Assembly (NCBI RefSeq): GCF_022842375.1
Contig: NZ_JALHPR010000005.1
Location: 134,370-198,369 of the forward strand
Direction: 5' to 3'
DNA: 64,000 bases
From: Elioraea sp.
GTDB taxonomy: Bacteria > Pseudomonadota > Alphaproteobacteria > Acetobacterales > Acetobacteraceae
The position numbers and the translations under genes were made by a program. Under the pieces are notes generated by a model that did not search any database, had not been told where the DNA came from, and was given only the letters and a program-made list of their open reading frames with translations. Of this stretch, positions 1,086-16,046 are shown in pieces. The number at the start of each line of letters is the position of its first letter. Within the stretch, counting starts at the first letter, position 1.

Positions 1086-1844
1086 TCAGGGCCTGACGGC
1101 TGGCGTCTCGACGGGCATGCCGGCGGCGCGCGACATCAGGTAGGCCTCGAGCGCGATGGCATCGTGCGAGCCGGGGGCGAAACTCTCCGCCCGCACGCCC
1201 GTCGTGCAGCCGCGCAGCCGCCGTTGGAGCGAACCGAGACCCTGCCACTCCAGGCGGTAGAGCGGATAGCCCGTGGGGTGGCCCTGGGGGATCACGCTGC
1301 CGGCGAGCCGCCGCCCGGCATTGTCGTCATGGCACTGGGCGCAGGAGAGGTTCAGTTGCCCACGCCGCATGCGATAGAGTGCAGCTCCCTCCGCTTGCAG
1401 CAGGGCGATGCGCGGATCATCGGGTGGGGCGATCGGCAGGCCGCGCGACTGGTGCGCCACGAAGGCCGTGAGCGCGAGGCTCGCCTCGCTCTCGCGTGGC
1501 GCCGGGGTCGCCTCCTGGTGGCGGGTCTGGCAGAGGGCGATGCGCCCGGCGAGGTCGACCGCCTCGCCGCGCTCGGCATCGATCGCCGGATAGCGGGCGG
1601 CGACGCCGCGCATCGATGCCGCCGCCTCGCCGTGGCAGTCGGCGCAGGACCGCTCTGTCCGCCCGGCCTTGCGCGACCATCGCCCCTCGCCATCGAGAAC
1701 CCACAGCATGCCCGGGTTGGCTGCATCGTCGGCCTGCATCGCCTGCGTCGCCGCGCTCATGTCGGCGAAGCCAGACCGCCGCTCCTCCGCGCCCGCCGCC
1801 GGCATCGCCGCAAGCAGGAGCGCGGCAAGCACGGCAGCCCTCAT
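1086..1844 (-). CDS. soxA: SoxA-like dihaem cytochrome c
   Basis: These are the last 252 aa of ORF 1086..2231, starting at MRAAVLAALLLAAMPAAGA (signal peptide). It has two CxxCH motifs (CADCH, CAQCH) and an LQRRLRGC region like the Cys-ligand segment of SoxA. Its start overlaps the soxZ stop (ATGA). Confidence 0.8.
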   Translation of the reverse strand: MRAAVLAALLLAAMPAAGAEERRSGFADMSAATQAMQADDAANPGMLWVLDGEGRWSRKAGRTERSCADCHGEAAASMRGVAARYPAIDAERGEAVDLAGRIALCQTRHQEATPAPRESEASLALTAFVAHQSRGLPIAPPDDPRIALLQAEGAALYRMRRGQLNLSCAQCHDDNAGRRLAGSVIPQGHPTGYPLYRLEWQGLGSLQRRLRGCTTGVRAESFAPGSHDAIALEAYLMSRAAGMPVETPAVRP

Positions 1845-2164
1845 GGGGTGACGGTGATGCGGCGCGTCTCCGTCTGCGCGAAGCCGTTGTCGCCTTTCCA
1901 CGTGAAGGTGAGTGTGCCGCTCTCTGTCGCGATCGTGGTGAAGGCGAGATAGGGGTTGGCGGCGATGGCGGGGTGCAACTCGGCGCTGAACACCTCCTCG
2001 CCGTCCCACGCGCAGGCGAAGCGGCGGATGATGTCTCGCGGCAGCACCTCGCCGCTCGAGCCGGGGCGGAAGCCTGTCTCCATCGGGTGCTGGATCAGCG
2101 CGCGAAGCTCGATCACGCTCCCGCGCACGGCGGTGGCCGGCACCTGCAGGATCACGCGCGCCAT
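1841..2164 (-). CDS. soxZ: SoxZ-like sulfur-carrier partner
   Basis: These are the last 107 aa of ORF 1841..3142 (MARVILQVPATAVRGSVIELRALIQHPMETGFR...LTFTWKGDNGF). The gene starts 2 nt after the soxY stop. Confidence 0.85.
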   Translation of the reverse strand: MARVILQVPATAVRGSVIELRALIQHPMETGFRPGSSGEVLPRDIIRRFACAWDGEEVFSAELHPAIAANPYLAFTTIATESGTLTFTWKGDNGFAQTETRRITVTP

Positions 2165-2166
2165 GC

Positions 2167-2613
2167 TCAGCCCTCCACGCAGGCAGCGAGGGTGACGACC
2201 ACCTCGGTGCTCTCCGACCAGAACGAACCATCGCTCATCGCCGCGATCGCGATGATGCGCTGCGACGTCGCGAGCCGCATGCGCGTGGTGATGGCCGCGC
2301 GCCCCGCACGCGGCCCGAGATGGGCGACGATCACCTGCGGCAGGGGGTTGCGCTCGGTGAACACGCCGATGCGCTGCACGTGGTCCTGCGGCGTCATCGG
2401 GCTCTCTACCGTGATGGCGATGGGCACGGTATTGCCGTTCTCGACCAGCGGCGGGATGTCGATCGCCACGCGCCCCTCGCGCAACGTGCCGCCCTCCCCG
2501 AGGAAGGCCGCGATCGCGTCGCGCATCGTCGCCGGCGTGGCCGAGGCCGGGCGCGTGGCGCTGAGCGCGAGGAGGGCAGGGGCGGCGGCCAGCATGGCGC
2601 GGCGTGACGGCAT
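2167..2613 (-). CDS. soxY: SoxY-like sulfur carrier with a non-canonical C-terminal tail
   Basis: 148 aa with a Tat-type signal (MPSRRAMLAAAPALLALSA) and a SoxY-like core (ENGNTVPIAITVESPMT). It has a C-terminal Cys in the tail ...VVVTLAACVEG rather than GGCGG. Confidence 0.8.
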   Translation of the reverse strand: MPSRRAMLAAAPALLALSATRPASATPATMRDAIAAFLGEGGTLREGRVAIDIPPLVENGNTVPIAITVESPMTPQDHVQRIGVFTERNPLPQVIVAHLGPRAGRAAITTRMRLATSQRIIAIAAMSDGSFWSESTEVVVTLAACVEG

Positions 2614-2622
2614 GGGCTGCTC

Positions 2623-3072
2623 CTACTCCTTGAGCGTCACGAGGAAGGCCACCACGTCCTCGACCTCTCCGGCGGTCAGCACCGGCCTGCCGCGCCAGGC
2701 GGCGCCGACGGCGGAAAGCCCCTCGGTGCGGTGATAGGGTGGCATGATCGTGTCCGGGTTCACCCGCGCACTGTCGACGATACGAAGCCGCAACTGTCCC
2801 TCCGAGAGCCTGCTGCCGGCGCCGGCGAGCGAAGGGGCGAGGTTGCCCTGGAACCGCTCCTCCGGGAACGGCCCGGCATGGCAGAGCAGGCAAAGGCCCC
2901 GCTGCCTGTCGGCGACGATGGCACGGCCCCGCGCCGCGTCGCCCGGCCTGCCGGTGAGCGATGCCGCGATCGCGTCGCCGCCGATCATGACAGGCCGTGG
3001 CTCGTCCGCCGCGGCGGGCATCGTGGCCAGCAGCATGGCCACGATGGCGCCACGACGGAGCCCCCCGCTCAC
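2623..3072 (-). CDS. soxX: SoxX-like monohaem cytochrome c
   Basis: The end of ORF 2623..3927 carries a CLLCH haem motif. A GTG at 3072 gives the signal peptide VSGGLRRGAIVAMLLATMPAAA and overlaps the upstream stop (GTGA). The alternative ATG at 3036 would truncate the signal. Confidence 0.7.
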   Translation of the reverse strand: MSGGLRRGAIVAMLLATMPAAADEPRPVMIGGDAIAASLTGRPGDAARGRAIVADRQRGLCLLCHAGPFPEERFQGNLAPSLAGAGSRLSEGQLRLRIVDSARVNPDTIMPPYHRTEGLSAVGAAWRGRPVLTAGEVEDVVAFLVTLKE

Positions 3073-5258
3073 GCGCGCCGAAGGTCCGCGTGCTTGAGCG
3101 GGAGCGAGCGCACCCGCTTGCCCGTGGCGGCGAAGATCGCATTCATCACGGCCGGTGCGGCCACCGCGATCGTCGGCTCGCCGACGCCGCCCCAGAACCC
3201 GCCGGACGTGATGATGATGGATTCCACCGCCGGCATCTCGGCCAGCATCAGTGACGGATAGGTATCGAAGTTCTCCTGCTCGACACGCCCGCCCTTCACC
3301 GTGATCTCCTGGTGCAGCGCCGCGCCCAGGCCATAGACGAACGAGCCCTCGATCTGCGCCTCGATCTGCTGCGGGTTCACCGCATGGCCGCAATCGGTCG
3401 CAGCCACGATGCGGTGGATCGAGAGCTTGCCGTCGTTCGAGACCGAAACCTCGGCGCAGGCAGCGACGTAGCTGCCGAAGCCGTGCGTCTGGGCAAGGCC
3501 GCGGAAGCGCCCGGCAGGCGCGGGCGTTCCCCAGCCGATGCGCTCCGCCACCGCGTTCAGCACCGCCAGATGCTTCGGATGGTTGGTCATGAGCGCGCGG
3601 CGGAAGGCGAGCGGGTCCTTCCCGGCCGCGTGGGCCAGTTCGTCGATGAAGCACTCGAGGTAGATCGCGTTCTGGTTCAGGTTCACCCCGCGCCAGAACC
3701 CTGGCGGAACCGATGGGTTCCGCATCGCGTGGTCGATCAGCAGGTTCGGGATCGTGTAGCCTATATCGGCTTCGCCGCCGCTGGCGTTCAGCCCCTGGAA
3801 CACGACCGGGTCGCGCCCGTCGCGGATGTTCTGCGGGAAGGTGCCAGCGACGATCGACTGCCCCGAGATGCGCATGGTGAGGCCGACGAGGTTGCCCTGC
3901 GCATCGAGCCCGCCGACGAGCTTGCACTGCGTCACCGGGTGGAACCTGCCCTGCAGCATGTCCTCCTCGCGCGACCAGATCATCTTGATCGGCGTTCCCG
4001 GCATCTGCTTGGCGATCAGCACCACCTGGGTCACCCAGTCATGCACGGCGCCGCGCCGGCCGAAGCCGCCGCCGAGGTGGATCTTGTGCACGTCGCACTG
4101 GGTCGCCGGAAGGCCTGATGCCGCCGCGGTTGCCGCGAGCGCCGCCTCGCCGTTCTGCGTCGGCGTCCACACCTCGCAGCGATCGGCCGTCCAGAGGGCC
4201 GTGGCGTTCATCACCTCCATGCACGCATGGTTCTGGTGCGGATACGCGTAGACAGCCTCGATCCGCTTCGCCGCACCCGTGATCGCTGCGCGCGCATCGC
4301 CCGCACGGTTGCCGACGACAGCCTCCGGCGCATCGAGCCCTTCCTTGAGCCAGGCAGCGACGGCCTCTGAGGAGGCGTTCGCGTTCGGCCCCTCGTCCCA
4401 CACGATCGGCAGCGCATCGAGCGCCTTCTTCGCCCGCCACCAGGTATCGGCCACGACCGCGACCGCGTTGTCGCCCACCGGGACGACGCGCTTGACGCCC
4501 GGCATCCCTTGCACGGCCGCGGCGTCGAAGCTCCTCACCTTGCCGCCGAAGATGGGGCAGGCCCGCACGGCGGCGTTGAGCATGCCCGGCAGGGTGAGGT
4601 CCATGCCGTAGACCTGCGAGCCGTTCGTCTTCTCGACCGTGTCGAGGCGCGCGACCGACTTGCCCGCGATCTTCCACGCGCGTGGATCCTTCAGCGGAAC
4701 GTTCTCCGGCGGCGTCAGCCTGCCGGCCGCCTCGGCAACGCGGCCATAGGTGGTCGTCCGCCCCGTCGGGGTGTGGGTGATCACGCTGTTCGCGGCCGAG
4801 CATTCAGCCGCCGGAACGTTCCACGCCGTGGCGGCTGCCTGGACGAGCATCATCCGCGCCGCCGCACCGCCCTTGCGCACGTAGTCCTGGCTTTCGCGGA
4901 TGCCGCGGCTGCCGCCGGTGGAGAAGTTCCCCCAGACGCGGCGTCGGGCGAGGTTCTGCCCCGGCGTCGGATACTCCGTCGTCACCTTCGCCCAGTCGCA
5001 CTCGAGCTCCTCGGCCACGAGCTGCGCCAGCCCGGTGAGCGTTCCCTGCCCCATCTCCGACCGGGCGATGCGGATCACAACGGTGTCGTCGGGCCTGATC
5101 ACCACCCAGGCATTGACCTCCGGCGGGATTGCGGGTGCGGCGCCCTGCGCGACGGCGCTGCGCGTCAGCGGCACGTGGAAGCCGAGGGTGAAGGCGCCGG
5201 CAGCAGCCGTGGCTGTGGCCATCAGGCCGCGGCGGGAGAGTGTGCTCTCTGTCGTCAT
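3069..5258 (-). CDS. Molybdopterin-binding large subunit of an IorB/aldehyde-oxidase-type (xanthine dehydrogenase family) oxidoreductase, Tat-exported
   Basis: 729 aa from MTTESTLSRRGLMATATAAAGAFTLG (Tat signal) within ORF 3069..5786. Typical segments include EMGQGTLTGLAQLVAEELE, HLGGGFGRR and GGVGEPTIAVAAPAVMNAIFAATG. The 176 aa upstream of this start are Arg-rich artefact. Confidence 0.85.
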   Translation of the reverse strand: MTTESTLSRRGLMATATAAAGAFTLGFHVPLTRSAVAQGAAPAIPPEVNAWVVIRPDDTVVIRIARSEMGQGTLTGLAQLVAEELECDWAKVTTEYPTPGQNLARRRVWGNFSTGGSRGIRESQDYVRKGGAAARMMLVQAAATAWNVPAAECSAANSVITHTPTGRTTTYGRVAEAAGRLTPPENVPLKDPRAWKIAGKSVARLDTVEKTNGSQVYGMDLTLPGMLNAAVRACPIFGGKVRSFDAAAVQGMPGVKRVVPVGDNAVAVVADTWWRAKKALDALPIVWDEGPNANASSEAVAAWLKEGLDAPEAVVGNRAGDARAAITGAAKRIEAVYAYPHQNHACMEVMNATALWTADRCEVWTPTQNGEAALAATAAASGLPATQCDVHKIHLGGGFGRRGAVHDWVTQVVLIAKQMPGTPIKMIWSREEDMLQGRFHPVTQCKLVGGLDAQGNLVGLTMRISGQSIVAGTFPQNIRDGRDPVVFQGLNASGGEADIGYTIPNLLIDHAMRNPSVPPGFWRGVNLNQNAIYLECFIDELAHAAGKDPLAFRRALMTNHPKHLAVLNAVAERIGWGTPAPAGRFRGLAQTHGFGSYVAACAEVSVSNDGKLSIHRIVAATDCGHAVNPQQIEAQIEGSFVYGLGAALHQEITVKGGRVEQENFDTYPSLMLAEMPAVESIIITSGGFWGGVGEPTIAVAAPAVMNAIFAATGKRVRSLPLKHADLRRA

Positions 5259-5272
5259 GTGCCCGTTCCCCC

Positions 5273-5743
5273 TCAACCGCTCGTCGCCGGGCCGCCCTCG
5301 GCGGCCCGCTTGATGCCCGCGAGCACCCGGTTGTAGGTGCCGCAGCGGCAGATGTTGGTGATCTCGGCGCGGATCTGGTCCTCGGTCGGCTTCGGCGTCT
5401 GCGCGAGCAGCGCGGCCGCGGCCATCAGCATGCCCGACTGGCAGAAGCCGCATTGCGGCACGTCGAGCTCGACCCACGCCTTCTGCAGCGGATGCTGCGT
5501 CCCCGCGGGCGCGAGGCCCTCGATCGTCACGATTTTCTGCGCCTCGGTGAAGGCGGAGACGGGCGTCGCGCATGAGCGCACGGCCACGCCGTCGACATGC
5601 ACGGTGCAGGCGCCACAGGCGGCGACGCCGCAGCCATACTTCGTTCCGGTCAGCCCGATCTGCTCGCGCAGCACCCAGAGGAGCGGCGTGTCGTCCTCGA
5701 CCGCCACGTCGATCGTTCGTCCATTGACGTTCAGCTTGGCCAT
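5273..5743 (-). CDS. [2Fe-2S]-binding small subunit (IorA/CoxS type)
   Basis: 156 aa from [13 protein letters not shown]. Cys clusters [11 protein letters not shown] and CGFCQSGM...CRCGTY are typical of the two [2Fe-2S] sites. It lies 14 nt upstream of the large subunit. Confidence 0.9.
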
Positions 5744-5965
5744 GTCGCTCCCCGTTCGTTGGGCCTTGGGTCGTAGCCCCCGGCACGTCCCTTCGCTCCC
5801 AGCGGCCTTGGGCCGTCTTGGCAGGGGCGCAACCGGTTGGTGCAGCCAGCCTACGCTATACGCCGGGAGAGGCAATCCCAGAGGGCAATGCGCGCCTCAT
5901 GATGTTGTGACCGGCTTCGTGCGATGCTGCGCTGCGCTGCCGCAGCCCGAGGAAGCGGCCGTCGC

Positions 5966-6892
5966 ATGACCGGAGTGATGCCACCGATGACCATGGCCAG
6001 CCTGCCGGACGAAGCCGTCCACCTGCCTTTCGATGACGGACCGTTCCGCATGGCGATGGGCCTCGTCGCCTGTCCCGAGGATGACTGGCTCGAGATCGAC
6101 GCTCGCTACCATGAGGAGATGGCAGAGCGTCGCGACCTGCTGGCCGCGCGCCATGCCGAGGTCTTTGCTGCCTGCCCGGGCTCTGAGCCGGCGCGCGTGG
6201 AGGTGCTGGAAGTTGTCGCCGCGCATCTTGTGCGGCGATACCCCGCCTGGTTCATGCGTGAGTGCGACACGCTGCATAACGCGTTGACGGGCGAGACGTG
6301 GACGCTCACGGCCCCGCACTGCGATCCGCTCGCGCTCGCTGGCCTGCTGGTGCAGGAGGATCTATGCCTCATCCGCCCTGGCGCGGACGCGGCCGTGCTC
6401 GAAGCAGCGGTGGTGTGCGCGCCGAGCCGCTGGCGGCTTGCGGAGAAGATCGGTCGACCGTTGATGGCGGTTCACGCACCGGTGCCGTTCTACGGAGACA
6501 GGCTCGGCAGCCCGGTCGATCGCTTCATGCGGCAGCTGAAGCCCGGGCGGATCGCTGTCAGGATGAACTGGTCGATCGTCGATGATCCTGCGCTGTTCCA
6601 GCCACATGCTCCATCGCGCCACGAGGCCTGCTCACCGATCACTTCGAGCAATGCCGGCGAAACACTGCATTTCCGCATGGAACGGCAAGGGTTCCGCCTG
6701 ATGGAGCGATCAGGCTCGGTGCTGTTCACCATCCGCGTCCACAGCTATCCGCTGGCCCGTGTCGTTCGTCTCCCCGGCGTCGCGGCGCGGCTCGCCGGGG
6801 CGGTGCGAGCACTGCCGCCCGAGATGTCCGCATACAAGGCCCTCGTGCCGTTCCTCGATCCGCTGCACGCCTATCTCGCGGCGGTGGCGTGA
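5966..6892 (+). CDS. DUF3445 family protein (haem-dependent oxidative N-demethylase alpha-subunit-like)
   Basis: ORF 5924..6892. The sequence (DDWLEID..YHEEMAERRDLL.., QEDLCLI, VCAPSRWRLAEKIG) matches my memory of DUF3445. The start is uncertain: in-frame ATGs lie at 5924, 5966, 5978, 5987 and 5993, and 5966 has GAGGAAG 10 nt upstream. Confidence 0.7.
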   Translation: MTGVMPPMTMASLPDEAVHLPFDDGPFRMAMGLVACPEDDWLEIDARYHEEMAERRDLLAARHAEVFAACPGSEPARVEVLEVVAAHLVRRYPAWFMRECDTLHNALTGETWTLTAPHCDPLALAGLLVQEDLCLIRPGADAAVLEAAVVCAPSRWRLAEKIGRPLMAVHAPVPFYGDRLGSPVDRFMRQLKPGRIAVRMNWSIVDDPALFQPHAPSRHEACSPITSSNAGETLHFRMERQGFRLMERSGSVLFTIRVHSYPLARVVRLPGVAARLAGAVRALPPEMSAYKALVPFLDPLHAYLAAVA

Positions 6893-8535
6893 TGCGGCGG
6901 ATGGCGAAGCGGCCCGATATCCTCGTCGGTGCCGCGATCGGCCTTGGCATGACGGCGCGCGCGGCGGCCGACGGGGGTGCGGATTTTGTTCTCGCGCTCA
7001 ACGCCGGCCGGTTCCGCGTGATGGGTGCGCCCTCGCTCGCCGCGATGCTGCCGATCAGCGACAGCAACGCCTTCACTGACGGCTTCGCCCGATCCGAGAT
7101 CCTCGACCGCGTGGCCATCCCCGTCTTCTTCGGTGCGGCGGCGTGCGACCCGCGCGTGGATGTCATGGCCCTCGTCACGCGAATCCGGCGTATCGGCTAT
7201 CGCGGCATCGCCAACTTCCCGACCGCCATCCATCATGACGGGCCGTTCCGCGCGGCGCTGGAGGCAGCCGGCCTCGGCTTCGCGCGCGAGGTCGAGATGC
7301 TTCGCGCGGCGCGCGGAATCGGGCTCGCCACGCTCGGCTATGCCAAGACGCGCGCGGAGGTCGATGCCCTGCTCGATGCCGGCGTCGAGCATCTCTGCCT
7401 GAACTTCGGCTGGAACGCCGGCGGCAGCATGGGCGTTCCGGGCGGCGTTCCGCTCGATGATGCGGCCGAGCGTGCGCGGCGGATCTTCGCCCATGTGCGA
7501 CGTATCGCACGCGGCACGCTCTGCCTGGTCGAGGGCGGGCCGATCGTCGATCCGACGCACATGATCCGCGTGTGCGATGCCTCGCGCGCCGATGGCTATG
7601 TCGGCGGCTCGACGCTCGATCGCCTGCCGCTCGAGATGTCGGTGATGCAGACCACCTCGGCCTTCAAGACCGCGCGGCTGTTGCGTGACGACCGCGCCGG
7701 CGGGGAGCAGCGGATTGTGGGGCTGCTTGGCGGGTCGCAGGCAGCGCGGACGCTCGCCGAACGGATCGCGAGGCTCGTCGCGACCGACCTGCCGATCGTC
7801 ATCGAAGGCGAGGCCGGTGCCGGCCGCACCTCCGCGGCGCGGGCGATCCATGCCACGAGCCGCCGTGGTGGCAGTGTCGGGTTCATCGATGCGCGCGAGG
7901 ACATCACGGGGGCATTGTTTGGCGAGCGGGGCCGAAACATGCTGGGTGCGGCGCAGAACACGGTTGTCATCGAGCATGCCGATGCGCTGGCGCCGACGCT
8001 TCGCGCACGGCTCGCGGAATGGATCGAGCGCGGCACGTTCGATCGTTTCGCCCGGCCAGACGAACGGCGGCCACGCGCGCGCCTGCTGTTGACGCACCCA
8101 CCTGGCGGCGAGGCGCTCGCCCGCGCCCTCTCGGCACAGCGCCTTGCCGTTCCGCCGCTGCGCGAGCGGATGGAAGACCTTCCAGTCATTGCCCGCGCGA
8201 TGCTGGGTGCAACGGGAAGGCCTGTGCCGGCCCTTCAGCCCGCCGCGCTCAGGCTGCTGATGGCACAACGCTGGCCCGGCAACCTGCGCGAACTGCAGCA
8301 CGCCCTGGCACGCGCGGCGCTCGAGGCCCGTGACGGGCGGATCGATGCCGTGGTGATCGAGCGCGTGCTCGGCCCCGCCCAGGTTGGCGCTGTCACGGAA
8401 GCGATGGATGAGCGTGCCTGGATTCTTGATGCGCTGCGTCGGCATCGTTTCCGACGTGGCGAGACGGCAGCGTTCCTCGGCATCGCTCGGAAGACGCTCT
8501 ACAACCGGATGCGGCGGCTTGGCCTCGACAACTGA
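6892..8535 (+). CDS. Transcriptional regulator: PEP-hydrolase-like TIM-barrel sensor domain + degenerate sigma-54-interaction (AAA+) domain + Fis-type HTH
   Basis: The N-terminus (ILVGAAIGLGMTARAAADGGADFVLALNAGRFRVMG...GIANFPTAIHHDG) is homologous to CDS 15206..16036. The centre has GEAGAGRT, VVIEHAD and WPGNLRELQH. The C-terminus has an HTH (ETAAFLGIARKTLYNRMRRLG). Its ATG overlaps the DUF3445 stop (GTGATG). Confidence 0.8.
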   Translation: MRRMAKRPDILVGAAIGLGMTARAAADGGADFVLALNAGRFRVMGAPSLAAMLPISDSNAFTDGFARSEILDRVAIPVFFGAAACDPRVDVMALVTRIRRIGYRGIANFPTAIHHDGPFRAALEAAGLGFAREVEMLRAARGIGLATLGYAKTRAEVDALLDAGVEHLCLNFGWNAGGSMGVPGGVPLDDAAERARRIFAHVRRIARGTLCLVEGGPIVDPTHMIRVCDASRADGYVGGSTLDRLPLEMSVMQTTSAFKTARLLRDDRAGGEQRIVGLLGGSQAARTLAERIARLVATDLPIVIEGEAGAGRTSAARAIHATSRRGGSVGFIDAREDITGALFGERGRNMLGAAQNTVVIEHADALAPTLRARLAEWIERGTFDRFARPDERRPRARLLLTHPPGGEALARALSAQRLAVPPLRERMEDLPVIARAMLGATGRPVPALQPAALRLLMAQRWPGNLRELQHALARAALEARDGRIDAVVIERVLGPAQVGAVTEAMDERAWILDALRRHRFRRGETAAFLGIARKTLYNRMRRLGLDN

Positions 8536-9119
8536 GAGTCTGCCGCATCGCGCCAGGCGAATGGCTCTCCTCCTTCGATCAGCACGTGGCTTGCCTGCTC
8601 TGGCCATGGCCGCGCCGGGCCCTCCCCGAGGCCGGGGTGGAGCAGGATCCGCCGCAGCCCGAGCGATAGCGCGATCGTTGCCGCATCGTCCGAGACGGCG
8701 CAGGCGATCGGCGCCATTCCATGCTCGGCGAAACGCAGCAGCATGCGGAACTCGGCTTCCGCGCGCATGCCAACCGAGGCCAGCGCCGCTGACGTCTCGG
8801 GACCGAAGAACTGGATCGTCGGGAAGTTCACCACCTCGGTAATGCCAGCTTCTGCCAACGCCGCCGCGACATCAGCGACGCGGAGGAAGGGGTCGCTTGC
8901 GAACACGCCCGCCACGGGTGCGCCCGCCCGCAGCCGGGCCCGCCCACGGCAGGCGGCAAGCAGGGCGCCGTTGATGTCGAGCACGGGCAGCAGCGCGACG
9001 AGGGGCCACCGCGCCGGCGGAAACTGCGCGAGCGCCGGCAGGAACACCCCGTCGCGCCGACGCTCGGGCCTGACACCGGCGAGGGAGGCGAGGGGATGCA
9101 GGGTTCGCACCATACCCAA
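8499..9119 (-). CDS. Short PEP-hydrolase-like (TIM-barrel signal-transduction family) paralogue
   Basis: 206 aa. PVAGVFASDPFLRVADVAAALAEAGITEVVNFPTIQFFGPETSAALASVGMRAEAEFRMLLRFAEHG...ILLHPGLG aligns by eye with [12 protein letters not shown]...[36 protein letters not shown]...ILVPHLGLT of CDS 15206..16036. The start is TTG at 9119 or ATG at 9113. The last 37 nt overlap the convergent regulator gene. Confidence 0.55.
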   Translation of the reverse strand: MGMVRTLHPLASLAGVRPERRRDGVFLPALAQFPPARWPLVALLPVLDINGALLAACRGRARLRAGAPVAGVFASDPFLRVADVAAALAEAGITEVVNFPTIQFFGPETSAALASVGMRAEAEFRMLLRFAEHGMAPIACAVSDDAATIALSLGLRRILLHPGLGEGPARPWPEQASHVLIEGGEPFAWRDAADSQLSRPSRRIRL

Positions 9120-9160
9120 TATTACCCGTTAATGACGCGCAATCCACCTTGCGACGAGCA

Positions 9161-9174
9161 TGCCTGATCAGGCA
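9161..9174. promoter_or_regulatory. Perfect 14-bp palindrome TGCCTGATCAGGCA in the divergent promoter region
   Basis: Read directly from the sequence. It lies between the short paralogue (start 9113/9119, minus) and the first permease gene (9242, plus), and is a candidate operator. Confidence 0.3.
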
Positions 9175-9241
9175 CACCCATGGTGGGAGCGGCCAGCCGA
9201 ACAGATGCGGCCGAGGGAGACACAAGGGAGACGGGCCGGGG

Positions 9242-10117
9242 ATGGACCTCGCCGCGACCATCGTGCTGAACGGGCTCACGCTCGCTGCGCTTTATTTCAT
9301 CGTCGCGAGCGGCTTCTCGCTGATCTTCGGCCTCATGCGCGTGGTGAACATGGCGCATGGTACGCTCTATCTGGTTGCCGGCTATGTCGGCTACCGCGTC
9401 TTCGAGCCGCTCTATGACGCTGACGTCTGGTGGGCATGGTATGCCGGGCTCGCGGCCGGCATTGTCGCGGCGGCGGTGGCCGGCGCCCTGTTGCAATGGG
9501 TGCTGCTGTCGTGGATGCAGGGCCAGGAACTGCGCCAGGCACTCGTCACGATCGGCGTCTCGATCATCGTGGCTGACCAGGTGCTGGCGATCTTCGGCGG
9601 CACGCCGCGGCAGTTCTTTGCCCCAGACGCGATCTTCGGTTCGACGCGCGTTCCCTTCGTCGGCGGCTACCCGACCTTCCGCCTCGTGCAGATCGGCATC
9701 GCGATCGCCGTCGGGATTGCGCTTTGGCTCGTCCTCAATCGCACGCGCCTCGGCATGATGATCCGCGCCGGTGTCGATGACCGCGAGATGCTCGGCGCCT
9801 GCGGGGTGAACGTGCCGCGCGTCGGCATCGCGGTGTTCGCGCTGGGCGCGGCGCTCTGCGGCCTCGGCGGCGTGATCGGCTCGACGGCACAGCCGCTCGC
9901 GCTTGGCCAGGACGGACGCTTCCTGCTCATCTCGCTCGTCGTCGTCATCGTCGGCGGCATGGGCTCGATCACCGGCACGGCGATCGGCGCGATCCTCGTC
10001 GGCCTTGCCGAGCAGATCGGCCAGGCGATGTTTCCGACCTACTCCGTCATCCTCACCTTCGTGATCATGGTGGCGGTGCTCGCGCTCCGGCCGCAGGGGA
10101 TCCTCGGCCGTGCGTAG
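9242..10117 (+). CDS. Branched-chain-amino-acid-type (LivH-like) ABC permease
   Basis: 291 aa from MDLAATIVLNGLTLAALYFIVASGFSLIFGLMRVVNMAHG, with AGGGAG upstream. It is the in-frame part of ORF 9149..10117. Confidence 0.85.
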   Translation: MDLAATIVLNGLTLAALYFIVASGFSLIFGLMRVVNMAHGTLYLVAGYVGYRVFEPLYDADVWWAWYAGLAAGIVAAAVAGALLQWVLLSWMQGQELRQALVTIGVSIIVADQVLAIFGGTPRQFFAPDAIFGSTRVPFVGGYPTFRLVQIGIAIAVGIALWLVLNRTRLGMMIRAGVDDREMLGACGVNVPRVGIAVFALGAALCGLGGVIGSTAQPLALGQDGRFLLISLVVVIVGGMGSITGTAIGAILVGLAEQIGQAMFPTYSVILTFVIMVAVLALRPQGILGRA

Positions 10118-11108
10118 CGCTGCCTTCCGCGCGATCGGTGCGCTGCTGCTCGTCGCAGCTCCCTTCCTGCTGCTCGTCGTGCTGCCGCAGAACCAGGCGC
10201 TGTTCTGGACGGCCAACGTGCTTGGCAGGGCGATCGTGTTCGGCATCATCGCGCTGTCGCTGAGCTTCCTCGCCACCTATGGCGGGTTCATCTCGCTCGC
10301 GCAGATGATGGTGGCGGGCTCGGCCGGCTACGCAGTCGCGATCCTGGTCGATGGTGCGGTGCCGACGATCGTGGGCGGCGTTCCCTATGCACTCGCGATG
10401 CCGATCGCGCTCGTCGTCGCCACGCTGATGGGGCTTCTCGTCGGCGCCGTGGCCGTACGCACGCGCGACATCTACCTGCTCATGATCACGCTCGCGGTGG
10501 CGATGGGCGTGTTCCGCTTCGTCGAGACCAACATTGCTTGGTTCAACGGCTACGAGGGCATCCGCAATGTCGTGGGGCCGCAGCTGTTCGGCACGGATTT
10601 CCGGAATCCGTACGTATTCTATTACGTCTCGCTCGTGGTCGCCGCGCTGCTCTATGGCGGCGTCCTCTACCTCGTGCGGACACCGTTCGGGCTCGTGCTC
10701 CAGGGCATCCGCGACAATGACAGGCGTGTCGCTGCACTCGGCTACTCGGTGAAGCTTCACCGCATCGCCGCGTTCGGCGTCGCCGGCTTCATCGCAGGCG
10801 CTGGCGGGGTGCTGGCAACGATCTACAACATCGGCATCTCACCCGGCACCATCGGGCTTGGGCCGACGGTGAACGTGCTGATCATGAGCGTGATCGGCGG
10901 GCTCGGCCATCCAGCCGGCGCCTTCATCGGCTCGCTGATCTTCACTGTGTTCGACACCTTCGCGGCCAACATCTACGACCGCGACCGCTTCAATACGCTG
11001 ATCGGCCTCGTGTTCCTGGTGATCGTGCTCGTCTCTCCCGACGGCATGGTCGGTCTTGGCACGCGGCTCCGCAGCCTGCTCGGGGCACGCCGTGCGCCAC
11101 AGCCCTGA
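10110..11108 (+). CDS. LivM-like ABC permease
   Basis: 332 aa, multi-TM, with typical ..SLSFLATYGGFISLAQ.. and ..RVAALGYSVKLHRIAAF.. segments. The GTG start overlaps the upstream stop by 8 nt. Confidence 0.85.
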   Translation: MRSAAFRAIGALLLVAAPFLLLVVLPQNQALFWTANVLGRAIVFGIIALSLSFLATYGGFISLAQMMVAGSAGYAVAILVDGAVPTIVGGVPYALAMPIALVVATLMGLLVGAVAVRTRDIYLLMITLAVAMGVFRFVETNIAWFNGYEGIRNVVGPQLFGTDFRNPYVFYYVSLVVAALLYGGVLYLVRTPFGLVLQGIRDNDRRVAALGYSVKLHRIAAFGVAGFIAGAGGVLATIYNIGISPGTIGLGPTVNVLIMSVIGGLGHPAGAFIGSLIFTVFDTFAANIYDRDRFNTLIGLVFLVIVLVSPDGMVGLGTRLRSLLGARRAPQP

Positions 11109-11177
11109 GGAGCGAGGCCCCCGGCACGGTGCCGGACGCGCCACCAACGAAAATCAACACAAAACAGGAGGAACATC

Positions 11178-12461
11178 ATGACGACGACACTCACGCGCCG
11201 GCGCGCCCTGCTCGGCACGGCAGGCATTGCAGCGGGGCTGGCAACGCCGCTTGCGGCCCCCGCGATCGCACAAGGAGCGCCCATCCGGCTCGGCGGGTTG
11301 ACCACGCTCGAAGGCCCCTTCGCAACGGGTGGCCAGGATGCCTTCCGCACCGTTCAAATGGAATTGGAGCGGATCAACTACACGGTCGGCGGCCGCAGGA
11401 TCGAGTTCATCCGCGAGAGCTCGAACGCACAGGCCGATGTCGCGCTGGCGCGTGCACGCAAGCTGATCGAGCAGGATAACGCCGACATCATCCTCGGGCC
11501 CCTCTCGGGTGCAGAGGGCATTGCGCTGCGCGACTATTCGCGCACGCTTACCGGGCGGACGATCGTCAATGGCAGTTCCGGGGCGTCCGACACGACGCTG
11601 CGCAACCCTTCGCCGAACTTCTTCCGCTTCTCCACCGATGGTACCCAGTGGATGGCCGGTCTCGGCCGTTACGTGTACGAGACGCTCGGCGTGCGCGAGG
11701 TCGCGGTGACCGCCGGTGACTACGCCTTTCCGTACGCTCAGGTGTTCGGCTTCAACATCGAGTTCTGCCGGCTCGGCGGCCGAGTCACGCAATACTGGGC
11801 GCCGCTCGGCACGACGGATTTCGGCGCGCAGATCGCACAGATCAACCGCTCCAGCGCCGGCGCGCTCGTAATCGTGCATGGCGGAACCGACGGGCTCGCC
11901 TTCATGACGCAGTATGCCCAGGCGGGCGGGCAGAAGCCGCTCATCGCCGGCTCGATCATGGCTGACCAGACGATGCTCGCCGCACGCGGCCCGCATCGGC
12001 GCGTGATGGTCGGCATGGTCTCCGGCGGCCCGATCGCGGATGTGATCGACGATCCCGATTGGCGCGAGTTCGTCGAGCGCTACCGCCGCCGTTGGCTGAA
12101 CGAGGGCGGGTTCCCGTCACCCTCGATCCACGCGGTCAACTACGCCACGAACCTCTGGGGCATCCTGAAGGCGCTGGAGGCCGTCCGCGGCGATCTTTCG
12201 AACAACCAGCAGGCGTTCCAGCGCGCGCTCGCCGCCGCCGAGTTCAAGGCGCCCACGGGCGCAAACGTGAAGCTTGACCACAATCGCCAGGCCATCTCCG
12301 ACATCTTCCTCAATCGCGTCGAGGAGCGGGACGGTCGTGCGCAGGTGGTGGCCTTCGCCCGGGCCAATGCGGTGAACCAGACCCTCGGCCTGCCTGAGGC
12401 ACAGTTCCTCGCCCTCGGCGCGCCCTCGCGCGACAATGCGGGCTGCGTGCGCCCATCCTGA
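11178..12461 (+). CDS. Periplasmic substrate-binding protein, Leu/Ile/Val (type I PBP, amide/urea-like) family, Tat signal
   Basis: 427 aa with MTTTLTRRRALLGTAGIAAGLATPLAAPAIAQG and an AGGAGG RBS. IRLGGLTTLEGPFA..DIILGPLSGAEG is typical of the family. Confidence 0.85.
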   Translation: MTTTLTRRRALLGTAGIAAGLATPLAAPAIAQGAPIRLGGLTTLEGPFATGGQDAFRTVQMELERINYTVGGRRIEFIRESSNAQADVALARARKLIEQDNADIILGPLSGAEGIALRDYSRTLTGRTIVNGSSGASDTTLRNPSPNFFRFSTDGTQWMAGLGRYVYETLGVREVAVTAGDYAFPYAQVFGFNIEFCRLGGRVTQYWAPLGTTDFGAQIAQINRSSAGALVIVHGGTDGLAFMTQYAQAGGQKPLIAGSIMADQTMLAARGPHRRVMVGMVSGGPIADVIDDPDWREFVERYRRRWLNEGGFPSPSIHAVNYATNLWGILKALEAVRGDLSNNQQAFQRALAAAEFKAPTGANVKLDHNRQAISDIFLNRVEERDGRAQVVAFARANAVNQTLGLPEAQFLALGAPSRDNAGCVRPS

Positions 12462-12527
12462 CGGCCTGACCTGTACCAGCGGGGCCGGCGAACGCCGGCC
12501 CCGCCCCTTGTCCTGGACCCCATAACC

Positions 12528-13289
12528 GTGACAGTCCCTGCCCTCAGCCTGCGGAATGTCAGCCGTCGCTTCGGCGCGCTGCAGGCCGTGCGCGATGTCA
12601 GCTTCGACGTCATGCCGGGCGAGCGCCGGGCCGTGCTCGGCCCGAACGGGGCGGGCAAGACGACGCTGTTCAATACGATCTGCGGCGACTTCCCGCCGAG
12701 CGCAGGCAGCATCAGCCTGTTCGGCCGCGACATCGCCAGCGCAAGCGCGCATGAGCGCACGCGGCTCGGCATCGGCCGCACCTATCAGACATCGCTGCTG
12801 TTCAACGGGCTCACGGTCCTCGATAACCTGTTCATCGCCGTGCGCGGATTGATGCCCAACCGTTTCTCATTCCTTCGGCCGCGCCGCGATGACACCGCGA
12901 TGGCCAAGGCGCGCACCCTCGCTGACCGTTTCGGCCTTGCACCGCTGGTCGCCGAGAAGGTCGTCAATCTAAGCCACGGCCAGCGCCGGCAGCTCGAGAT
13001 CGGGATGGCGCTTGCCGGCGACCCGAAGCTCCTGATGCTCGACGAGCCGGCGGCCGGGCTTTCACCTGGCGATCGCCCGGGCCTGCTGGCGATGCTGCAC
13101 GCCCTGCCGCGCAGCGTCACGTTGATCCTGATCGAGCACGATATGGATATCGCGCTTCCCGCTGCGGACATCGTGACGGTGATGAAGGACGGCGAGGTCG
13201 TGGTCGAGGCGCCACCCGACAGGATTGAGGACAATCCGATCGTGCAGGCGATCTATCTCGGCAGCGGGCTGGCCGGGGGTGGGCACTGA
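12528..13289 (+). CDS. LivG-like ABC ATPase
   Basis: Walker A GPNGAGKTT, signature LSHGQRRQL, Walker B LLMLDEPAAG. The start is GTG. Confidence 0.85.
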   Translation: MTVPALSLRNVSRRFGALQAVRDVSFDVMPGERRAVLGPNGAGKTTLFNTICGDFPPSAGSISLFGRDIASASAHERTRLGIGRTYQTSLLFNGLTVLDNLFIAVRGLMPNRFSFLRPRRDDTAMAKARTLADRFGLAPLVAEKVVNLSHGQRRQLEIGMALAGDPKLLMLDEPAAGLSPGDRPGLLAMLHALPRSVTLILIEHDMDIALPAADIVTVMKDGEVVVEAPPDRIEDNPIVQAIYLGSGLAGGGH

Positions 13290-13996
13290 TGCTGTCGGTG
13301 ACCGACCTTCATGTCCGCTTCGGCGAGGCGCATATCCTGCAGGGCGTAAGCATCGCGGTTGGCCGAACGCCGCTGGCAATCGTCGGGCGCAACGGCATGG
13401 GCAAGACCACGCTCTGCCAGGCGATCATGGGCCTGGTGCGGTCGAGCGAGGGCGCGGTGACGCTCGCCGGAACACCGCTGACCGGCAAGCTTCCCTACCA
13501 GGTCGCGCGCAGCGGCGTCGCGCTCGTGCCGCAGGGGCGGCGCACCTTCCCTTCGCTCTCGGTGCATGAGCACCTGCTGCTGGTCGCTCGCACGCGGGAC
13601 GCGGCATGGACCATCGATCGTGTCTACGACACTTTCCCGCGTCTCGCCGAGCGGCGACGCAACGGCGGCACCGAGCTTTCGGGCGGGGAGCAGCAGATGC
13701 TCGCGATCGCGCGTGCGCTGCTGATGAACCCGACCCTCGTCATCATGGACGAGCCGAGCGAGGGGCTCGCGCCTGTGATCGTCGACCAACTGATCGGCGT
13801 GCTGCGCACGCTCGAGGGCGACGGGATGGGCCTCTTGCTCGTCGAGCAGAACCTCCGGGTCGCAACCGAAGTTGCGTCCGAGGTGTCGATCATGGTGACC
13901 GGCAGGATCGCCACGACCCTGCCTGCGCACGTGCTTGCTGCCGATACCGAGATCCAGCGCCGCTACCTGGGCGTCGCGGCTGGCGGACATCACTGA
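13289..13996 (+). CDS. LivF-like ABC ATPase
   Basis: Walker A GRNGMGKTT, signature LSGGEQQML, Walker B VIMDEPSEGL. The ATG overlaps the upstream TGA. Confidence 0.9.
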   Translation: MLSVTDLHVRFGEAHILQGVSIAVGRTPLAIVGRNGMGKTTLCQAIMGLVRSSEGAVTLAGTPLTGKLPYQVARSGVALVPQGRRTFPSLSVHEHLLLVARTRDAAWTIDRVYDTFPRLAERRRNGGTELSGGEQQMLAIARALLMNPTLVIMDEPSEGLAPVIVDQLIGVLRTLEGDGMGLLLVEQNLRVATEVASEVSIMVTGRIATTLPAHVLAADTEIQRRYLGVAAGGHH

Positions 13997-14007
13997 GGAG
14001 GAAGGCG

Positions 14008-15204: not shown

Positions 15205-15205
15205 G

Positions 15206-16036
15206 ATGCCCCGCTTCACGCGCGCCGTGCTGCTCGAGAGGTTCAATGCCATGGTAGCGCGCCGCGAGCCGATCATCGGCGGCGGCGCGGGAACGGGACT
15301 GTCGGCCAGGTGCGAGGAGGCCGGCGGGATCGACCTGATCGTCATCTACAATTCCGGCCGCTATCGCATGGCTGGGCGCGGATCGCTTGCCGGGCTTCTC
15401 GCCTACGGCAACGCGAACGAGATCGTGAAGGAGATGGCACGCGAGGTGCTGCCCGTCGTCAAGCGCACGCCAGTGATCGCCGGCGTGAACGGCACCGACC
15501 CGTTCGCGATCATGGATCACCTGCTGGATGAGCTGAAGGCGCTGGGCTTCGCCGGGGTGCAGAACTTCCCGACCGTCGGGCTGATCGACGGAACGTTCCG
15601 CGCCAATCTCGAGGAGACCGGCATGGGCTTCGGGCACGAGATCGACATGATCCGCCTCGCCAATGCGAAGGACATGCTCACCACGCCCTACGTGTTTAAC
15701 GCGGATGAGGCAGCCGAGATGGCAAAGGCGGGGGCCGACATCCTCGTGCCGCATCTCGGGCTTACCACGGGCGGAGCGATCGGCGCCCACACCGCACTGA
15801 AGCTCGAGGACTGCCCCGCCCTGATCGACGAGTGGGCGGAAGCCGCGCGCCGCGTGCGGCCGGACATCATCGTGCTCTGCCATGGCGGTCCGATCGCGAC
15901 ACCAGAGGATGCGTCCTACATCCTCCGCAACACGAAGAACATCAACGGCTTCTACGGCGCGTCATCGATGGAGCGGCTGCCGACCGAGATCGCGCTCACC
16001 GAACAGACGCGCAGCTTCAAGTCCATCAGTTTCTGA
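15206..16036 (+). CDS. Phosphoenolpyruvate-hydrolase-like TIM-barrel protein (usual partner of UPF0261)
   Basis: 276 aa from [34 protein letters not shown]. It starts 1 nt after the UPF0261 stop and contains [13 protein letters not shown] and [12 protein letters not shown]. Confidence 0.8.
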
Positions 16037-16046
16037 AGGAGCCACC

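What the first reader, a model, noticed from the sequence alone, without database searches (positions are those of the whole stretch)
6892..8535. Sigma-54-type enhancer-binding protein with all three functional motifs degenerate
The central domain is recognisably of the sigma-54-interaction type (WPGNLRELQH, PPLRERMEDLP). However, Walker A reads GEAGAGRT, with Arg where the invariant Lys sits in GESGTGKE. The GAFTGA sigma-54-contact loop region is collapsed to DITGALFGERGRNMLG. Walker B reads VVIEHAD instead of hhhhDE. The second EBP in this window (31834..33204) keeps GPSGSGKE, GAFTGA and LFLDEV, so the degeneration is gene-specific. This suggests an ATPase-dead, probably sigma-54-independent regulator that retains the TIM-barrel sensor and the Fis-type HTH.
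Basis: seen in the sequence. Interest (0 to 1): 0.65.

Follow-up and report, generated by a model that had tools for sequence, protein, structure and literature searches.

The report
Fossilised sigma-54 activator turned ordinary regulator
This gene encodes a transcription regulator descended from sigma-54 "enhancer-binding" ATPases; its motor has lost every catalytic and sigma-54-contact motif yet is still conserved, and it most likely switches on the neighbouring transport and enzyme operon through an ordinary promoter.

Summary
ORF 6892..8535 (+) encodes 547 aa: a PEP-hydrolase-like TIM-barrel (TBST) domain, a shortened EBP-type AAA+ domain, an AAA lid and a Fis-type HTH. Walker A is GEAGAGRT, the GAFTGA loop is deleted, and Walker B is VVIEHAD. 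Sensor I Asn and both Arg fingers are also gone; only the sensor II Arg remains.

This is not a private decay. The same state occurs in all 118 listed homologues, and dN/dS of the AAA+ remnant is about 0.28. Of 119 family members, 18 are intact EBPs and 101 are degenerate to graded degrees.

The regulator sits beside a conserved module: a short TBST paralogue, a Liv-type ABC transporter, a UPF0261 kinase-family protein, a TBST enzyme and an SRPBCC protein. A tandem repeat TTACCCAAnnTTACCCAA (window 9112..9128) precedes that operon in almost every locus.

All 12 intact members examined have a -24/-12 promoter next to them; 1 of 33 degenerate members does. Degenerate members instead carry a -35-like TTG 19-21 nt past the repeat (window TTGCGA, 9149..9154).

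Best reading: an ATPase-dead, sigma-54-independent "atypical EBP" of the TyrR/VpsR/NtrX kind. It is a new member of a known kind. Nothing here was tested experimentally.

The parts
6892..8535 (+). REG: TBST-sensor / degenerate AAA+ / HTH regulator, 547 aa (alternative GTG start at 6889)
   Evidence: ORF. Domains. 118 homologues at 50-82% identity. AF2 model with pLDDT 82.
6892..7671 (+). PEP-hydrolase-like (TBST) TIM-barrel sensor domain
   Evidence: PF09370, E 3e-72. PDB 2p10, E 6e-37, TM 0.77. It keeps most of the invariant polar residues of the enzyme paralogue, but the enzyme's invariant His is Glu here (VEGGPI). dN/dS 0.17.
7726..8160 (+). Shortened EBP-type AAA+ alpha/beta subdomain with no catalytic or sigma-54-contact motifs
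   Evidence: Weak Sigma54_activat and Sigma54_activ_2 hits. The five-strand core is kept in the AF2 model. TM about 0.70 to the PspF and NtrC1 AAA+ domains. dN/dS 0.28.
7807..7830 (+). Walker A remnant GEAGAGRT (Lys replaced by Arg)
   Evidence: G306, G309 and G311 are invariant in alignment A1.
7900..7947 (+). DITGALFGERGRNMLG: the place where the GAFTGA (L1) hairpin is deleted
   Evidence: A gap of about 10-12 residues against canonical EBPs. Only a short helix at 339-343 in the model.
7963..7983 (+). Walker B remnant VVIEHAD (Asp-Glu replaced by Glu-His)
   Evidence: Glu-Asn is the commonest pair among degenerate members.
8161..8370 (+). AAA+ lid with PPLRERMEDLP and the sensor II Arg in WPGNLRELQH
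   Evidence: PF25601, E 3e-12. The sensor II Arg co-varies with P-loop integrity across the family.
8410..8517 (+). Fis-type HTH_8 DNA-binding domain
   Evidence: PF02954, E 1e-8. This is the most conserved part: 91% identity and dN/dS 0.07 among close orthologues.
8499..9113 (-). Short TBST paralogue (204 aa), convergent with REG and overlapping its 3' end by 37 bp
   Evidence: PF09370 partial hit, E 4e-11. Same gene in the same place in orthologous loci, including the intact-EBP locus L033. dN/dS about 0.38.
9112..9128 (+). Predicted operator: tandem direct repeat ATACCCAAtaTTACCCG (10-bp period), abutting the short-TBST start codon
   Evidence: The only zero-mismatch hit in the 64-kb window. 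Present at the equivalent place in about 32 of 36 full-length loci across Alpha-, Delta- and Gammaproteobacteria. Background: 12 hits with at most one mismatch in 586 kb of unrelated loci.
9149..9154 (+). -35-like hexamer TTGCGA, 21 nt past the operator. The expected -10 (about 9172..9177, GCACAC) is poor.
   Evidence: A yTG[GC] element at offset 19-21 in 20 of 31 degenerate loci, against 0.07 in shuffles. Information peak at offsets 20-22, with weak A at 44 and T at 49. L026 and L030 read TTGCAT-N17-TATATT.
9242..16964 (+). Predicted target operon: livH, livM, Peripla_BP_6 binding protein, livG, livF, UPF0261 (14008..15204), TBST enzyme (15206..16036), SRPBCC (16047..16964)
   Evidence: Pfam. 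Synteny with REG in about 35 of 45 loci. UPF0261 matches the Tm-1 N-domain (E 2e-89) and MarK 9mpy (E 2e-58). The TBST enzyme matches 2p10 (E 3e-120).
5924..6892 (+). HODM-alpha-like (DUF3445) gene, translationally coupled to REG in this genome only
   Evidence: PF11927, E 2e-71. The TGA overlaps the ATG. Absent next to REG in all other loci.

Best explanation
REG is an 'atypical' enhancer-binding-protein homologue: a one-component regulator descended from a sigma-54 activator.

Shown from sequence:
- The AAA+ domain keeps its fold but has lost the Walker A Lys, the Walker B Asp-Glu, the sensor I Asn, both Arg fingers and the whole GAFTGA hairpin.
- The domain is under purifying selection.
- The gene is tightly linked to an ABC-transporter / UPF0261 / TBST-enzyme / SRPBCC operon.
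- That operon is preceded by a conserved tandem TTACCC repeat and has no -24/-12 promoter.

Inferred:
1. The highly conserved HTH binds the TTACCC repeats, centred near -63.
2. The N-terminal TIM barrel, a paralogue of the operon's own enzyme, binds a substrate or intermediate of that pathway.
3. Ligand binding changes the oligomeric or conformational state held by the dead AAA+ scaffold. The conserved GxxGxGRT loop and sensor II Arg may still bind nucleotide without hydrolysing it.
4. The bound regulator activates a sigma-70-type promoter (-35 TTGCGA at 9149..9154), probably as a class-I-type activator. It may at the same time occlude the start of the divergent short-TBST gene.
For: Motif loss at the aligned positions. 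Fold retained.

Selection: dN/dS is 0.28 for the AAA+ alpha/beta remnant and 0.36 for the lid, against 0.4-0.7 for the linkers. The same degenerate state is seen in all 118 listed homologues.

Graded states across 119 members: 18 intact, 29 with loop length kept but no GAFTGA, 37 with a shortened loop and a GxxGxG P-loop (36 of them with Lys/Arg), 35 with the P-loop lost.

Synteny. Operator conservation.

Sigma-54 promoters: 12 of 12 intact members have one adjacent, including L033 with TGGCACAGCTCTTGCG 53 nt past the same repeats. Only 1 of 33 degenerate members has one at two mismatches or fewer (Fisher 5e-10, not phylogeny-corrected).

-35-like element in fixed phase with the operator. Good sigma-70 promoters in L026 and L030, and an extended -10 (TGnTAGCTT) in L029 and L031 at the same geometry.

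No -24/-12 match in window 9120..9241 or 5741..5923. A plausible sigma-54 promoter does lie next to the window's canonical EBP (31727..31742).

P-loop integrity co-varies with the sensor II Arg. The sensor keeps the enzyme paralogue's polar invariants. Precedents: VpsR, TyrR, HupR, NtrX, DhaR (PMC6158489, PMC3162934).
Against: - There are no experimental data of any kind. The window comes from a drinking-water metagenome and no RNA runs hold it.
- The window's own -10 region is unconvincing, and the consensus sigma-70 scan found nothing in 5600..9400.
- About a third of degenerate loci carry CTGG or GTGG rather than TTG at the -35 position.
- Fis-type HTH dimers usually bind inverted repeats, not direct repeats.
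- Binding of REG to the repeat is inferred from co-occurrence only.
- The position fits activation, but the same site overlaps the short-TBST start, so repression is also possible.
- The statistics are not corrected for shared ancestry.
Confidence: 0.7

Rival explanations
1. REG is mainly a repressor, or a dual regulator. It sits on the TTACCC repeats and blocks the divergent short-TBST gene and/or the liv/UPF0261 operon until ligand releases it, as NtrX and TyrR do at some promoters.
For: The repeat abuts and overlaps the ATG of the short-TBST gene. NtrX, the best full-length structural match, acts as a repressor (PMC6158489). The window's -10 is poor.
Against: Intact relatives with the same operator are by construction activators of the same operon. 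The operator lies upstream of, not over, the -35-like element, in a fixed phase typical of activator sites.
Confidence: 0.2
2. The TIM-barrel domain is still an enzyme, so REG is a bifunctional 'trigger enzyme' whose catalytic turnover controls its DNA-binding output. This is compatible with the main explanation.
For: Fourteen invariant polar residues of the enzyme paralogue are kept in the sensor domain, which has the lowest dN/dS after the HTH.
Against: An invariant His of the enzymes (HGGPI) is Glu in REG, and several other enzyme invariants (E37, D156, T187) are replaced. The catalytic residues of this family are not known.
Confidence: 0.15
3. REG still works through sigma-54, either by forming mixed rings with an intact EBP or by using an unrecognised contact surface.
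For: The organism has at least one canonical EBP and a plausible -24/-12 promoter. Co-dependent EBP pairs exist (HrpR/HrpS, PMC3105312).
Against: There is no -24/-12 element at the conserved target, in the window or in 32 of 33 degenerate loci. The L1 hairpin is deleted and the Arg fingers needed to complete a neighbour's active site are absent.
Confidence: 0.03
4. The gene is a decaying remnant without function.
For: Every canonical motif is lost.
Against: The reading frame is intact. dN/dS is 0.07-0.36 in all domains. The state is shared across many genera, with conserved synteny and operator.
Confidence: 0.02

Closest known systems
Vibrio cholerae VpsR (atypical EBP, sigma-70 activator; PDB 7v2b)
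   Same: Has an EBP-homologous AAA+ domain with no GAFTGA and a non-consensus Walker B (Asn-Asp). No ATPase activity was detected. Activates a sigma-70 promoter from a site just upstream of -35 (PMC6158489). It is a sequence and fold match to REG.
   Different: VpsR has a REC domain and uses c-di-GMP. REG has a TIM-barrel sensor. REG also lacks the Walker A Lys, sensor I and the Arg fingers, and about 12 loop residues are physically deleted.
Brucella abortus NtrX (PDB 5m7n)
   Same: Best full-length structural match. It is a GAFTGA-less EBP homologue with an HTH, listed as an atypical EBP (PMC6158489).
   Different: NtrX is a response regulator crystallised with ATP and ADP (entry titles) and acts as a repressor at its characterised promoter. 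Its sensor domain and target genes differ from REG's.
E. coli TyrR and DhaR; Rhodobacter capsulatus HupR
   Same: EBP homologues with defective GAFTGA that act at sigma-70 promoters (PMC3162934). From background knowledge, TyrR and DhaR are one-component ligand- or enzyme-sensing regulators.
   Different: From background knowledge, these keep a canonical Walker A. Their sensor domains (ACT/PAS, GAF/PAS, REC) are unrelated to the TIM barrel.
Intact TBST-EBP members of the same family (e.g. L033 Ancylobacter, L020 Aquisalimonas, L083, L084, L087)
   Same: Same domain order, same GTTACCC half-site, same UPF0261 plus TBST-enzyme target genes, and in L033 and L020 the same short TBST companion.
   Different: They keep GxxGxGKE, GAFTGA, hhhDE, ATN and FREDLYYRL, and have -24/-12 promoters next to them.
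Mll9387 (PDB 2p10) and the C-terminal half of plant Tm-1
   Same: The sensor domain is a member of PF09370 with the same TIM-barrel fold. The operon's UPF0261 and TBST pair is the split bacterial counterpart of Tm-1 (PMC5028733).
   Different: Those are stand-alone proteins, or are fused to UPF0261. They are not DNA-binding regulators.

Membership tests
Functional sigma-54 enhancer-binding protein (bEBP) | Central domain homologous to the Sigma54_activat AAA+ clade | tested here: met
   PF00158 scores 29.6 bits (cut-off 20.2) but covers only profile positions 2-51. PF14532 scores 28.2 bits. Matches to NifA, NtrC1, ZraR and PspF at E 2e-19 to 2e-8. TM about 0.70 to the AAA+ domains.
Functional sigma-54 enhancer-binding protein (bEBP) | Walker A GxxxxGK[ST/E] with the invariant Lys | tested here: not met
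   GEAGAGRT: Arg sits at the Lys position.
Functional sigma-54 enhancer-binding protein (bEBP) | GAFTGA sigma-54-contact loop (L1) | tested here: not met
   A gap of about 10-12 residues. No GAFTGA-like string.
Functional sigma-54 enhancer-binding protein (bEBP) | Walker B hhhhDE, sensor I Asn/Thr, Arg fingers | tested here: not met
   VVIEH in place of hhhDE, LLLTHP in place of VAATN, and the FRxDLxxRL region deleted or replaced.
Functional sigma-54 enhancer-binding protein (bEBP) | Target promoter of the -24 GG / -12 GC type | tested here: not met
   Nothing within two mismatches of the consensus in 9120..9241 or 5741..5923. Degenerate orthologous loci are at shuffle level.
Functional sigma-54 enhancer-binding protein (bEBP) | C-terminal Fis-type HTH | tested here: met
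   PF02954, E 1e-8.
Atypical (sigma-54-independent) EBP homologues: TyrR, VpsR, NtrX, HupR, DhaR | EBP-homologous AAA+ domain with a defective or absent GAFTGA | tested here: met
   The definition follows PMC6158489 and PMC3162934.
Atypical (sigma-54-independent) EBP homologues: TyrR, VpsR, NtrX, HupR, DhaR | Regulated promoter is of the sigma-70 type | tested here: inconclusive
   A -35-like TTG lies in fixed phase with the operator across loci, and there are clear -35/-10 pairs in L026 and L030. The window's own -10 is poor.
Atypical (sigma-54-independent) EBP homologues: TyrR, VpsR, NtrX, HupR, DhaR | Activity independent of rpoN and of ATP hydrolysis | not testable with these tools
   This needs genetics and biochemistry.
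PEP_hydrolase / TBST TIM-barrel family (PF09370) | Profile match above the gathering score, and a TIM-barrel fold like 2p10 | tested here: met
   243.5 bits against a cut-off of 33.8. 2p10 at E 6e-37 and TM 0.77.
PEP_hydrolase / TBST TIM-barrel family (PF09370) | Catalytic activity | not testable with these tools
   The catalytic residues are unknown. Most polar invariants are kept, but an enzyme-invariant His is Glu in REG.

The most novel reading that the evidence does not exclude
The TBST-EBP family is a natural series in which one regulator, keeping the same operator half-site and the same target operon, has switched from sigma-54 to sigma-70 several times independently. Its AAA+ motor is fossilised step by step:
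1. Intact.
2. GAFTGA lost.
3. Loop deleted, but the P-loop and sensor II are kept.
4. P-loop gone.

The promoter was rewritten in step with the protein. The window's protein is a mid-stage fossil. It would still use nucleotide binding, without hydrolysis, as an assembly or allosteric switch, and it may be controlled by the co-conserved truncated TIM-barrel paralogue acting as a partner or anti-activator.
Probability: 0.35. Interest if true: 0.7.

Novelty: new member of a known kind. Interest (0 to 1): 0.5.

Why it matters
GAFTGA-less EBP homologues that act at sigma-70 promoters are already known, so the single gene is not a surprise in kind. Three things give it value.

1. It belongs to a large, uncharacterised family: about 100 clusters at 50% identity. 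Databases name its members only 'phosphoenolpyruvate hydrolase family protein' or 'sigma-54-dependent regulator'. For most members the second name is probably wrong.

2. Intact and progressively degenerate members control the same operon through the same DNA half-site. That makes the family a ready-made system for asking how a regulator changes sigma-factor dependence, and what a dead AAA+ ring is retained for.

3. The regulated genes are the bacterial UPF0261 plus TBST pair that gave rise to plant Tm-1. Their biochemistry is nearly unknown; the only catalytic activity reported for UPF0261 is the MarK aromatic kinase. A sensor domain paralogous to the pathway enzyme, together with a defined operator, gives a practical handle for finding the inducer and hence the pathway's substrate.

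Tried and rejected
- **Palindrome as operator.** The perfect 14-bp palindrome TGCCTGATCAGGCA (9161..9174) is not conserved in any orthologous locus.
- **Wrong repeat spacing.** A first search used an 11-bp spacing and found nothing. The true period is 10 bp.
- **Sigma-54 promoter search.** I searched the window and the orthologous promoter regions. The best local match is AGGCATGCTCGTCGCA (9150..9165, minus strand), with 3 mismatches. That is chance level, and the match is not conserved.
- **Consensus sigma-70 and terminator scan of 5600..9400.** No hits.
- **Functional link to the upstream HODM-like gene.** The coupling is unique to this genome.
- **RNA evidence.** The window occurs only in drinking-water metagenome DNA runs. 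Contigs from runs matching the L022 relative showed only a cDNA fragment inside the short-TBST gene and no transcript ends.
- **Literature on TBST-EBP regulators.** None found.
- **Pseudogene reading.** Rejected on dN/dS and conservation.
Full report
**1. The observation**

ORF 6889/6892..8535 (+) is real. Its ATG shares one base with the TGA of the upstream HODM-alpha-like gene (GTGATG).

Pfam finds four parts:
- A strong PEP_hydrolase (PF09370, 'TBST') domain, aa 2-261, E 3e-72.
- Weak, partial sigma-54-interaction-domain hits. PF00158 matches only profile positions 2-51. PF14532 matches aa 280-424.
- An AAA lid, aa 425-494.
- A Fis-type HTH, aa 508-543.

The window's other EBP lies at 31834..33204 on the minus strand, not the plus strand. 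It scores 202 bits on PF00158 over the full profile.

HMMER alignments to NifA, NtrC1 and ZraR and MAFFT alignments to the canonical EBP place them at the canonical positions:
- Arg at the Walker A Lys (GEAGAGRT).
- A gap of about 10-12 residues where GAFTGA should be.
- Glu-His where the Walker B Asp-Glu should be (VVIEHAD).

The sensor I Asn and the Arg-finger segment are also missing. Of the nucleotide-site residues, only the sensor II Arg (WPGNLRELQH) survives.

The AF2 model has pLDDT 82. It keeps the five-strand AAA+ core, the lid and the HTH. Foldseek ranks Brucella NtrX, NtrC1 and VpsR as the best full-length matches and 2p10 as the best match for the TIM barrel. TM to isolated EBP AAA+ domains is about 0.70.

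**2. Not a private decay**

All 118 listed homologues (50-82% identity) show the same state. They come from Roseomonadaceae/Acetobacteraceae, Methylobacterium, Microvirga, Stella, Paracoccaceae and others.

Nei-Gojobori dN/dS among eight close orthologues:

| Region | dN/dS |
|---|---|
| TIM barrel | 0.17 |
| AAA+ alpha/beta remnant | 0.28 |
| Lid | 0.36 |
| HTH | 0.07 |
| Linkers | 0.4-0.7 |

The dead motor is therefore maintained by selection.

An exhaustive representative search gave 167 clusters at E<=1e-30. I classified 119 members (84 full-length representatives plus the window protein and 34 locus-derived sequences):

| Class | State | Count |
|---|---|---|
| a | Intact EBP: GxxGxGKE, GAFTGA, hhhDE, ATN, FREDLYYRL | 18 |
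| b | Loop length kept, GAFTGA gone | 29 |
| c | Loop shortened, GxxGxG[K/R] kept (the window's class) | 36 |
| c2 | GxxGxG kept, but neither Lys nor Arg follows | 1 |
| d | P-loop gone as well | 35 |

P-loop integrity co-varies with the sensor II Arg: 61/22 against 5/31, Fisher 1e-9, not phylogeny-corrected. This suggests that class c, including the window's protein, may still bind nucleotide.

I built a rough NJ tree on non-AAA columns, midpoint-rooted and without support values. It infers an intact root and at least five independent losses.

**3. Genomic context**

In about 35 of 45 full-length loci REG is adjacent to the same module:
- A short (about 205-230 aa) truncated TBST paralogue. 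It is convergent with REG and overlaps its 3' end.
- livH, livM, a binding protein, livG and livF.
- UPF0261.
- A stand-alone TBST enzyme.
- An SRPBCC protein.

These loci span Alpha-, Delta- and Gammaproteobacteria.

The module's coordinates in the window:

| Gene | Coordinates |
|---|---|
| Short TBST | 8499..9113 (-) |
| Whole module | 9242..16964 (+) |
| UPF0261 | 14008..15204 |
| TBST enzyme | 15206..16036 |
| SRPBCC | 16047..16964 |

The UPF0261 protein matches the Tm-1 N-domain (E 2e-89) and the aromatic kinase MarK (9mpy, E 2e-58) (PMC12624787). The enzyme matches 2p10 at E 3e-120. So the operon encodes the split bacterial counterpart of plant Tm-1 (PMC5028733).

REG's sensor domain is 31% identical to that enzyme. 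It retains 14 of the enzyme's invariant polar residues but replaces an invariant His by Glu.

The short TBST gene is real. It is conserved in place and has dN/dS of about 0.38. It also accompanies the intact EBP of L033. The HODM-like gene is linked to REG only in this genome.

**4. Operator and promoter**

The 122-bp region between the short TBST gene and livH carries ATACCCAAtaTTACCCG (9112..9128). This is a tandem direct repeat with a 10-bp period.
- It is the only perfect match in the 64-kb window.
- It occurs at the equivalent position, pointing toward the operon, in about 32 of 36 loci. Desulfobacteraceae and a gammaproteobacterium are among them.
- Unrelated loci give 12 hits with at most one mismatch in 586 kb.
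- A locus with the operon but no REG (L047) has no repeat.
- Intact family members from other phyla carry the same GTTACC(C) half-site, often inverted.

This matches the extreme conservation of the HTH.

Downstream of the repeat, degenerate loci show a yTG[GC] element at offset 19-21 in 20 of 31 cases. The shuffle frequency is 0.07 (binomial 6e-16). Information peaks at offsets 20-22, and weak A and T signals fall in the phase expected for a -10 element.

L026 and L030 read TTGCAT-N17-TATATT. L029 and L031 have TGnTAGCTT at the same distance. In the window the -35-like hexamer is TTGCGA (9149..9154), but the -10 region is poor. This geometry puts the operator centre near -63.

**5. The sigma-54 test**

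Neither flanking intergenic region of the window has a GG-N10-GC match within two mismatches of the consensus. Among degenerate loci, the best scores in the ~190 nt past the operator match the shuffle distribution.

By contrast, every intact member examined has such a promoter pointing at the adjacent operon:

| Locus | Promoter sequence | Mismatches |
|---|---|---|
| L033 | TGGCACAGCTCTTGCG | 0 |
| L043 | TGGCATGGCTCTTGCC | 1 |
| L040 | TGGCAACGTATTTGCA | 1 |
| L042 | TGGCAAGCGGTTTGCA | 1 |
| L083 | TGGCATTGATTTTGCA | 1 |
| L084 | TGGCATAAATCTTGCG | 1 |
| L085 | TGGCACATCGCCTGCT | 1 |
| L088 | TGGCACGAGGTGTGCT | 1 |
| L020 | TGGCATGGGGTGTGCA | 2 |
| L086 | TGGCATATCCGATGCT | 2 |
| L087 | TGGCCTTCAAATTGCC | 2 |
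| L089 | TGGCATAATAAGTGCC | 2 |

The L033 promoter lies 53 nt past the same repeats.

That is 12 of 12 intact members against 1 of 33 degenerate ones (Fisher 5e-10, not phylogeny-corrected).

The window's organism probably does use sigma-54. Its canonical EBP is followed by CGGCACGGAGGTTGCT (31727..31742, minus strand), upstream of a molybdopterin oxidoreductase gene.

**6. Interpretation**

REG is best read as an ATPase-dead, sigma-54-independent descendant of an EBP. It would sense a metabolite of the UPF0261/TBST pathway through a pseudo-enzyme-like TIM barrel. It would bind the TTACCC repeats and activate a sigma-70-type promoter. The AAA+ remnant would serve as an oligomerisation or allosteric scaffold, possibly nucleotide-binding.

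The class is known: TyrR, DhaR, HupR, NtrX and VpsR (PMC6158489, PMC3162934). What is new:
- This sensor type.
- The depth of the degeneration.
- The direct-repeat operator.
- The co-conserved truncated paralogue.
- The family-wide graded series with matching promoter types.

No paper on these regulators was found.

All functional statements are inferences from sequence comparison. No expression or biochemical data exist for this locus.

Noticed in passing
window 31727..31742 (-), between 31834..33204 (-) and 30294..31676 (-): A plausible sigma-54 promoter, CGGCACGGAGGTTGCT (1 mismatch), lies in the 157-bp gap between the canonical response-regulator EBP and a molybdopterin oxidoreductase gene (Oxidored_molyb plus Mo-co_dimer). 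A histidine kinase gene lies upstream at 33170..34603 (-). Together these look like a classical two-component sigma-54 unit.
   Followed up: partly
window 8499..9113 (-): The truncated TBST paralogue overlaps REG's 3' end by 37 bp. Its conserved C-terminus (SRPSRRIRL) is encoded antisense to REG's conserved YNRMRRLGL. In Natronohydrobacter and Roseinatronobacter alkalisoli (L015, L017) the same gene lies upstream of REG on the same strand. Its role is unknown; it could be a partner or an anti-activator.
   Followed up: partly
window 9161..9174: A perfect 14-bp palindrome, TGCCTGATCAGGCA, sits between the -35-like hexamer and the expected -10 of the liv/UPF0261 promoter. It is not conserved in any orthologous locus. 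It may be a lineage-specific site for a second regulator.
   Followed up: partly
window 5924..6892 (+): A haem-dependent oxidative N-demethylase alpha-subunit-like (DUF3445) gene is translationally coupled to REG (the TGA overlaps the ATG). This arrangement was seen in no other locus, so here REG is probably transcribed from that gene's promoter.
   Followed up: partly
L008-L012, L014, L018 (offset 19-20 past the repeat): In Methylobacterium, Microvirga, Beijerinckiaceae and related loci the -35 position reads CTGGAA, CTGGAC or CTGGCA instead of TTGCxx. No GC follows at the -12 spacing. It is unclear whether this is a -35 variant, a relic of a -24 element, or a site for another sigma factor.
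   Followed up: partly
L036 10001..10863 (Falsiroseomonas sp. E2-1-a4): The REG homologue matches only residues 1-289, in two pieces, although the contig continues. No UPF0261/TBST operon is nearby. This looks like a truncated or disrupted copy.
   Followed up: no
L022 11866..12125: Contigs flanked by cDNA adaptors, from two small runs of a related organism, cover part of the short-TBST gene at word depth 105 and 21. This hints that the gene is transcribed there.
   Followed up: partly
window 1086..5786 (-): SoxA/TsdA-type cytochrome c and SoxZ-containing ORFs lie at the window's start. They are followed by a 2Fe-2S plus molybdopterin-binding aldehyde-oxidase-type pair, divergent from the HODM-like gene.
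   Followed up: no
window 17005..24034: Downstream of the operon lie an amidohydrolase (-), an SBP_bac_5 binding protein, an amidase and a TauD-family dioxygenase. They are not conserved with REG in other loci.
   Followed up: no
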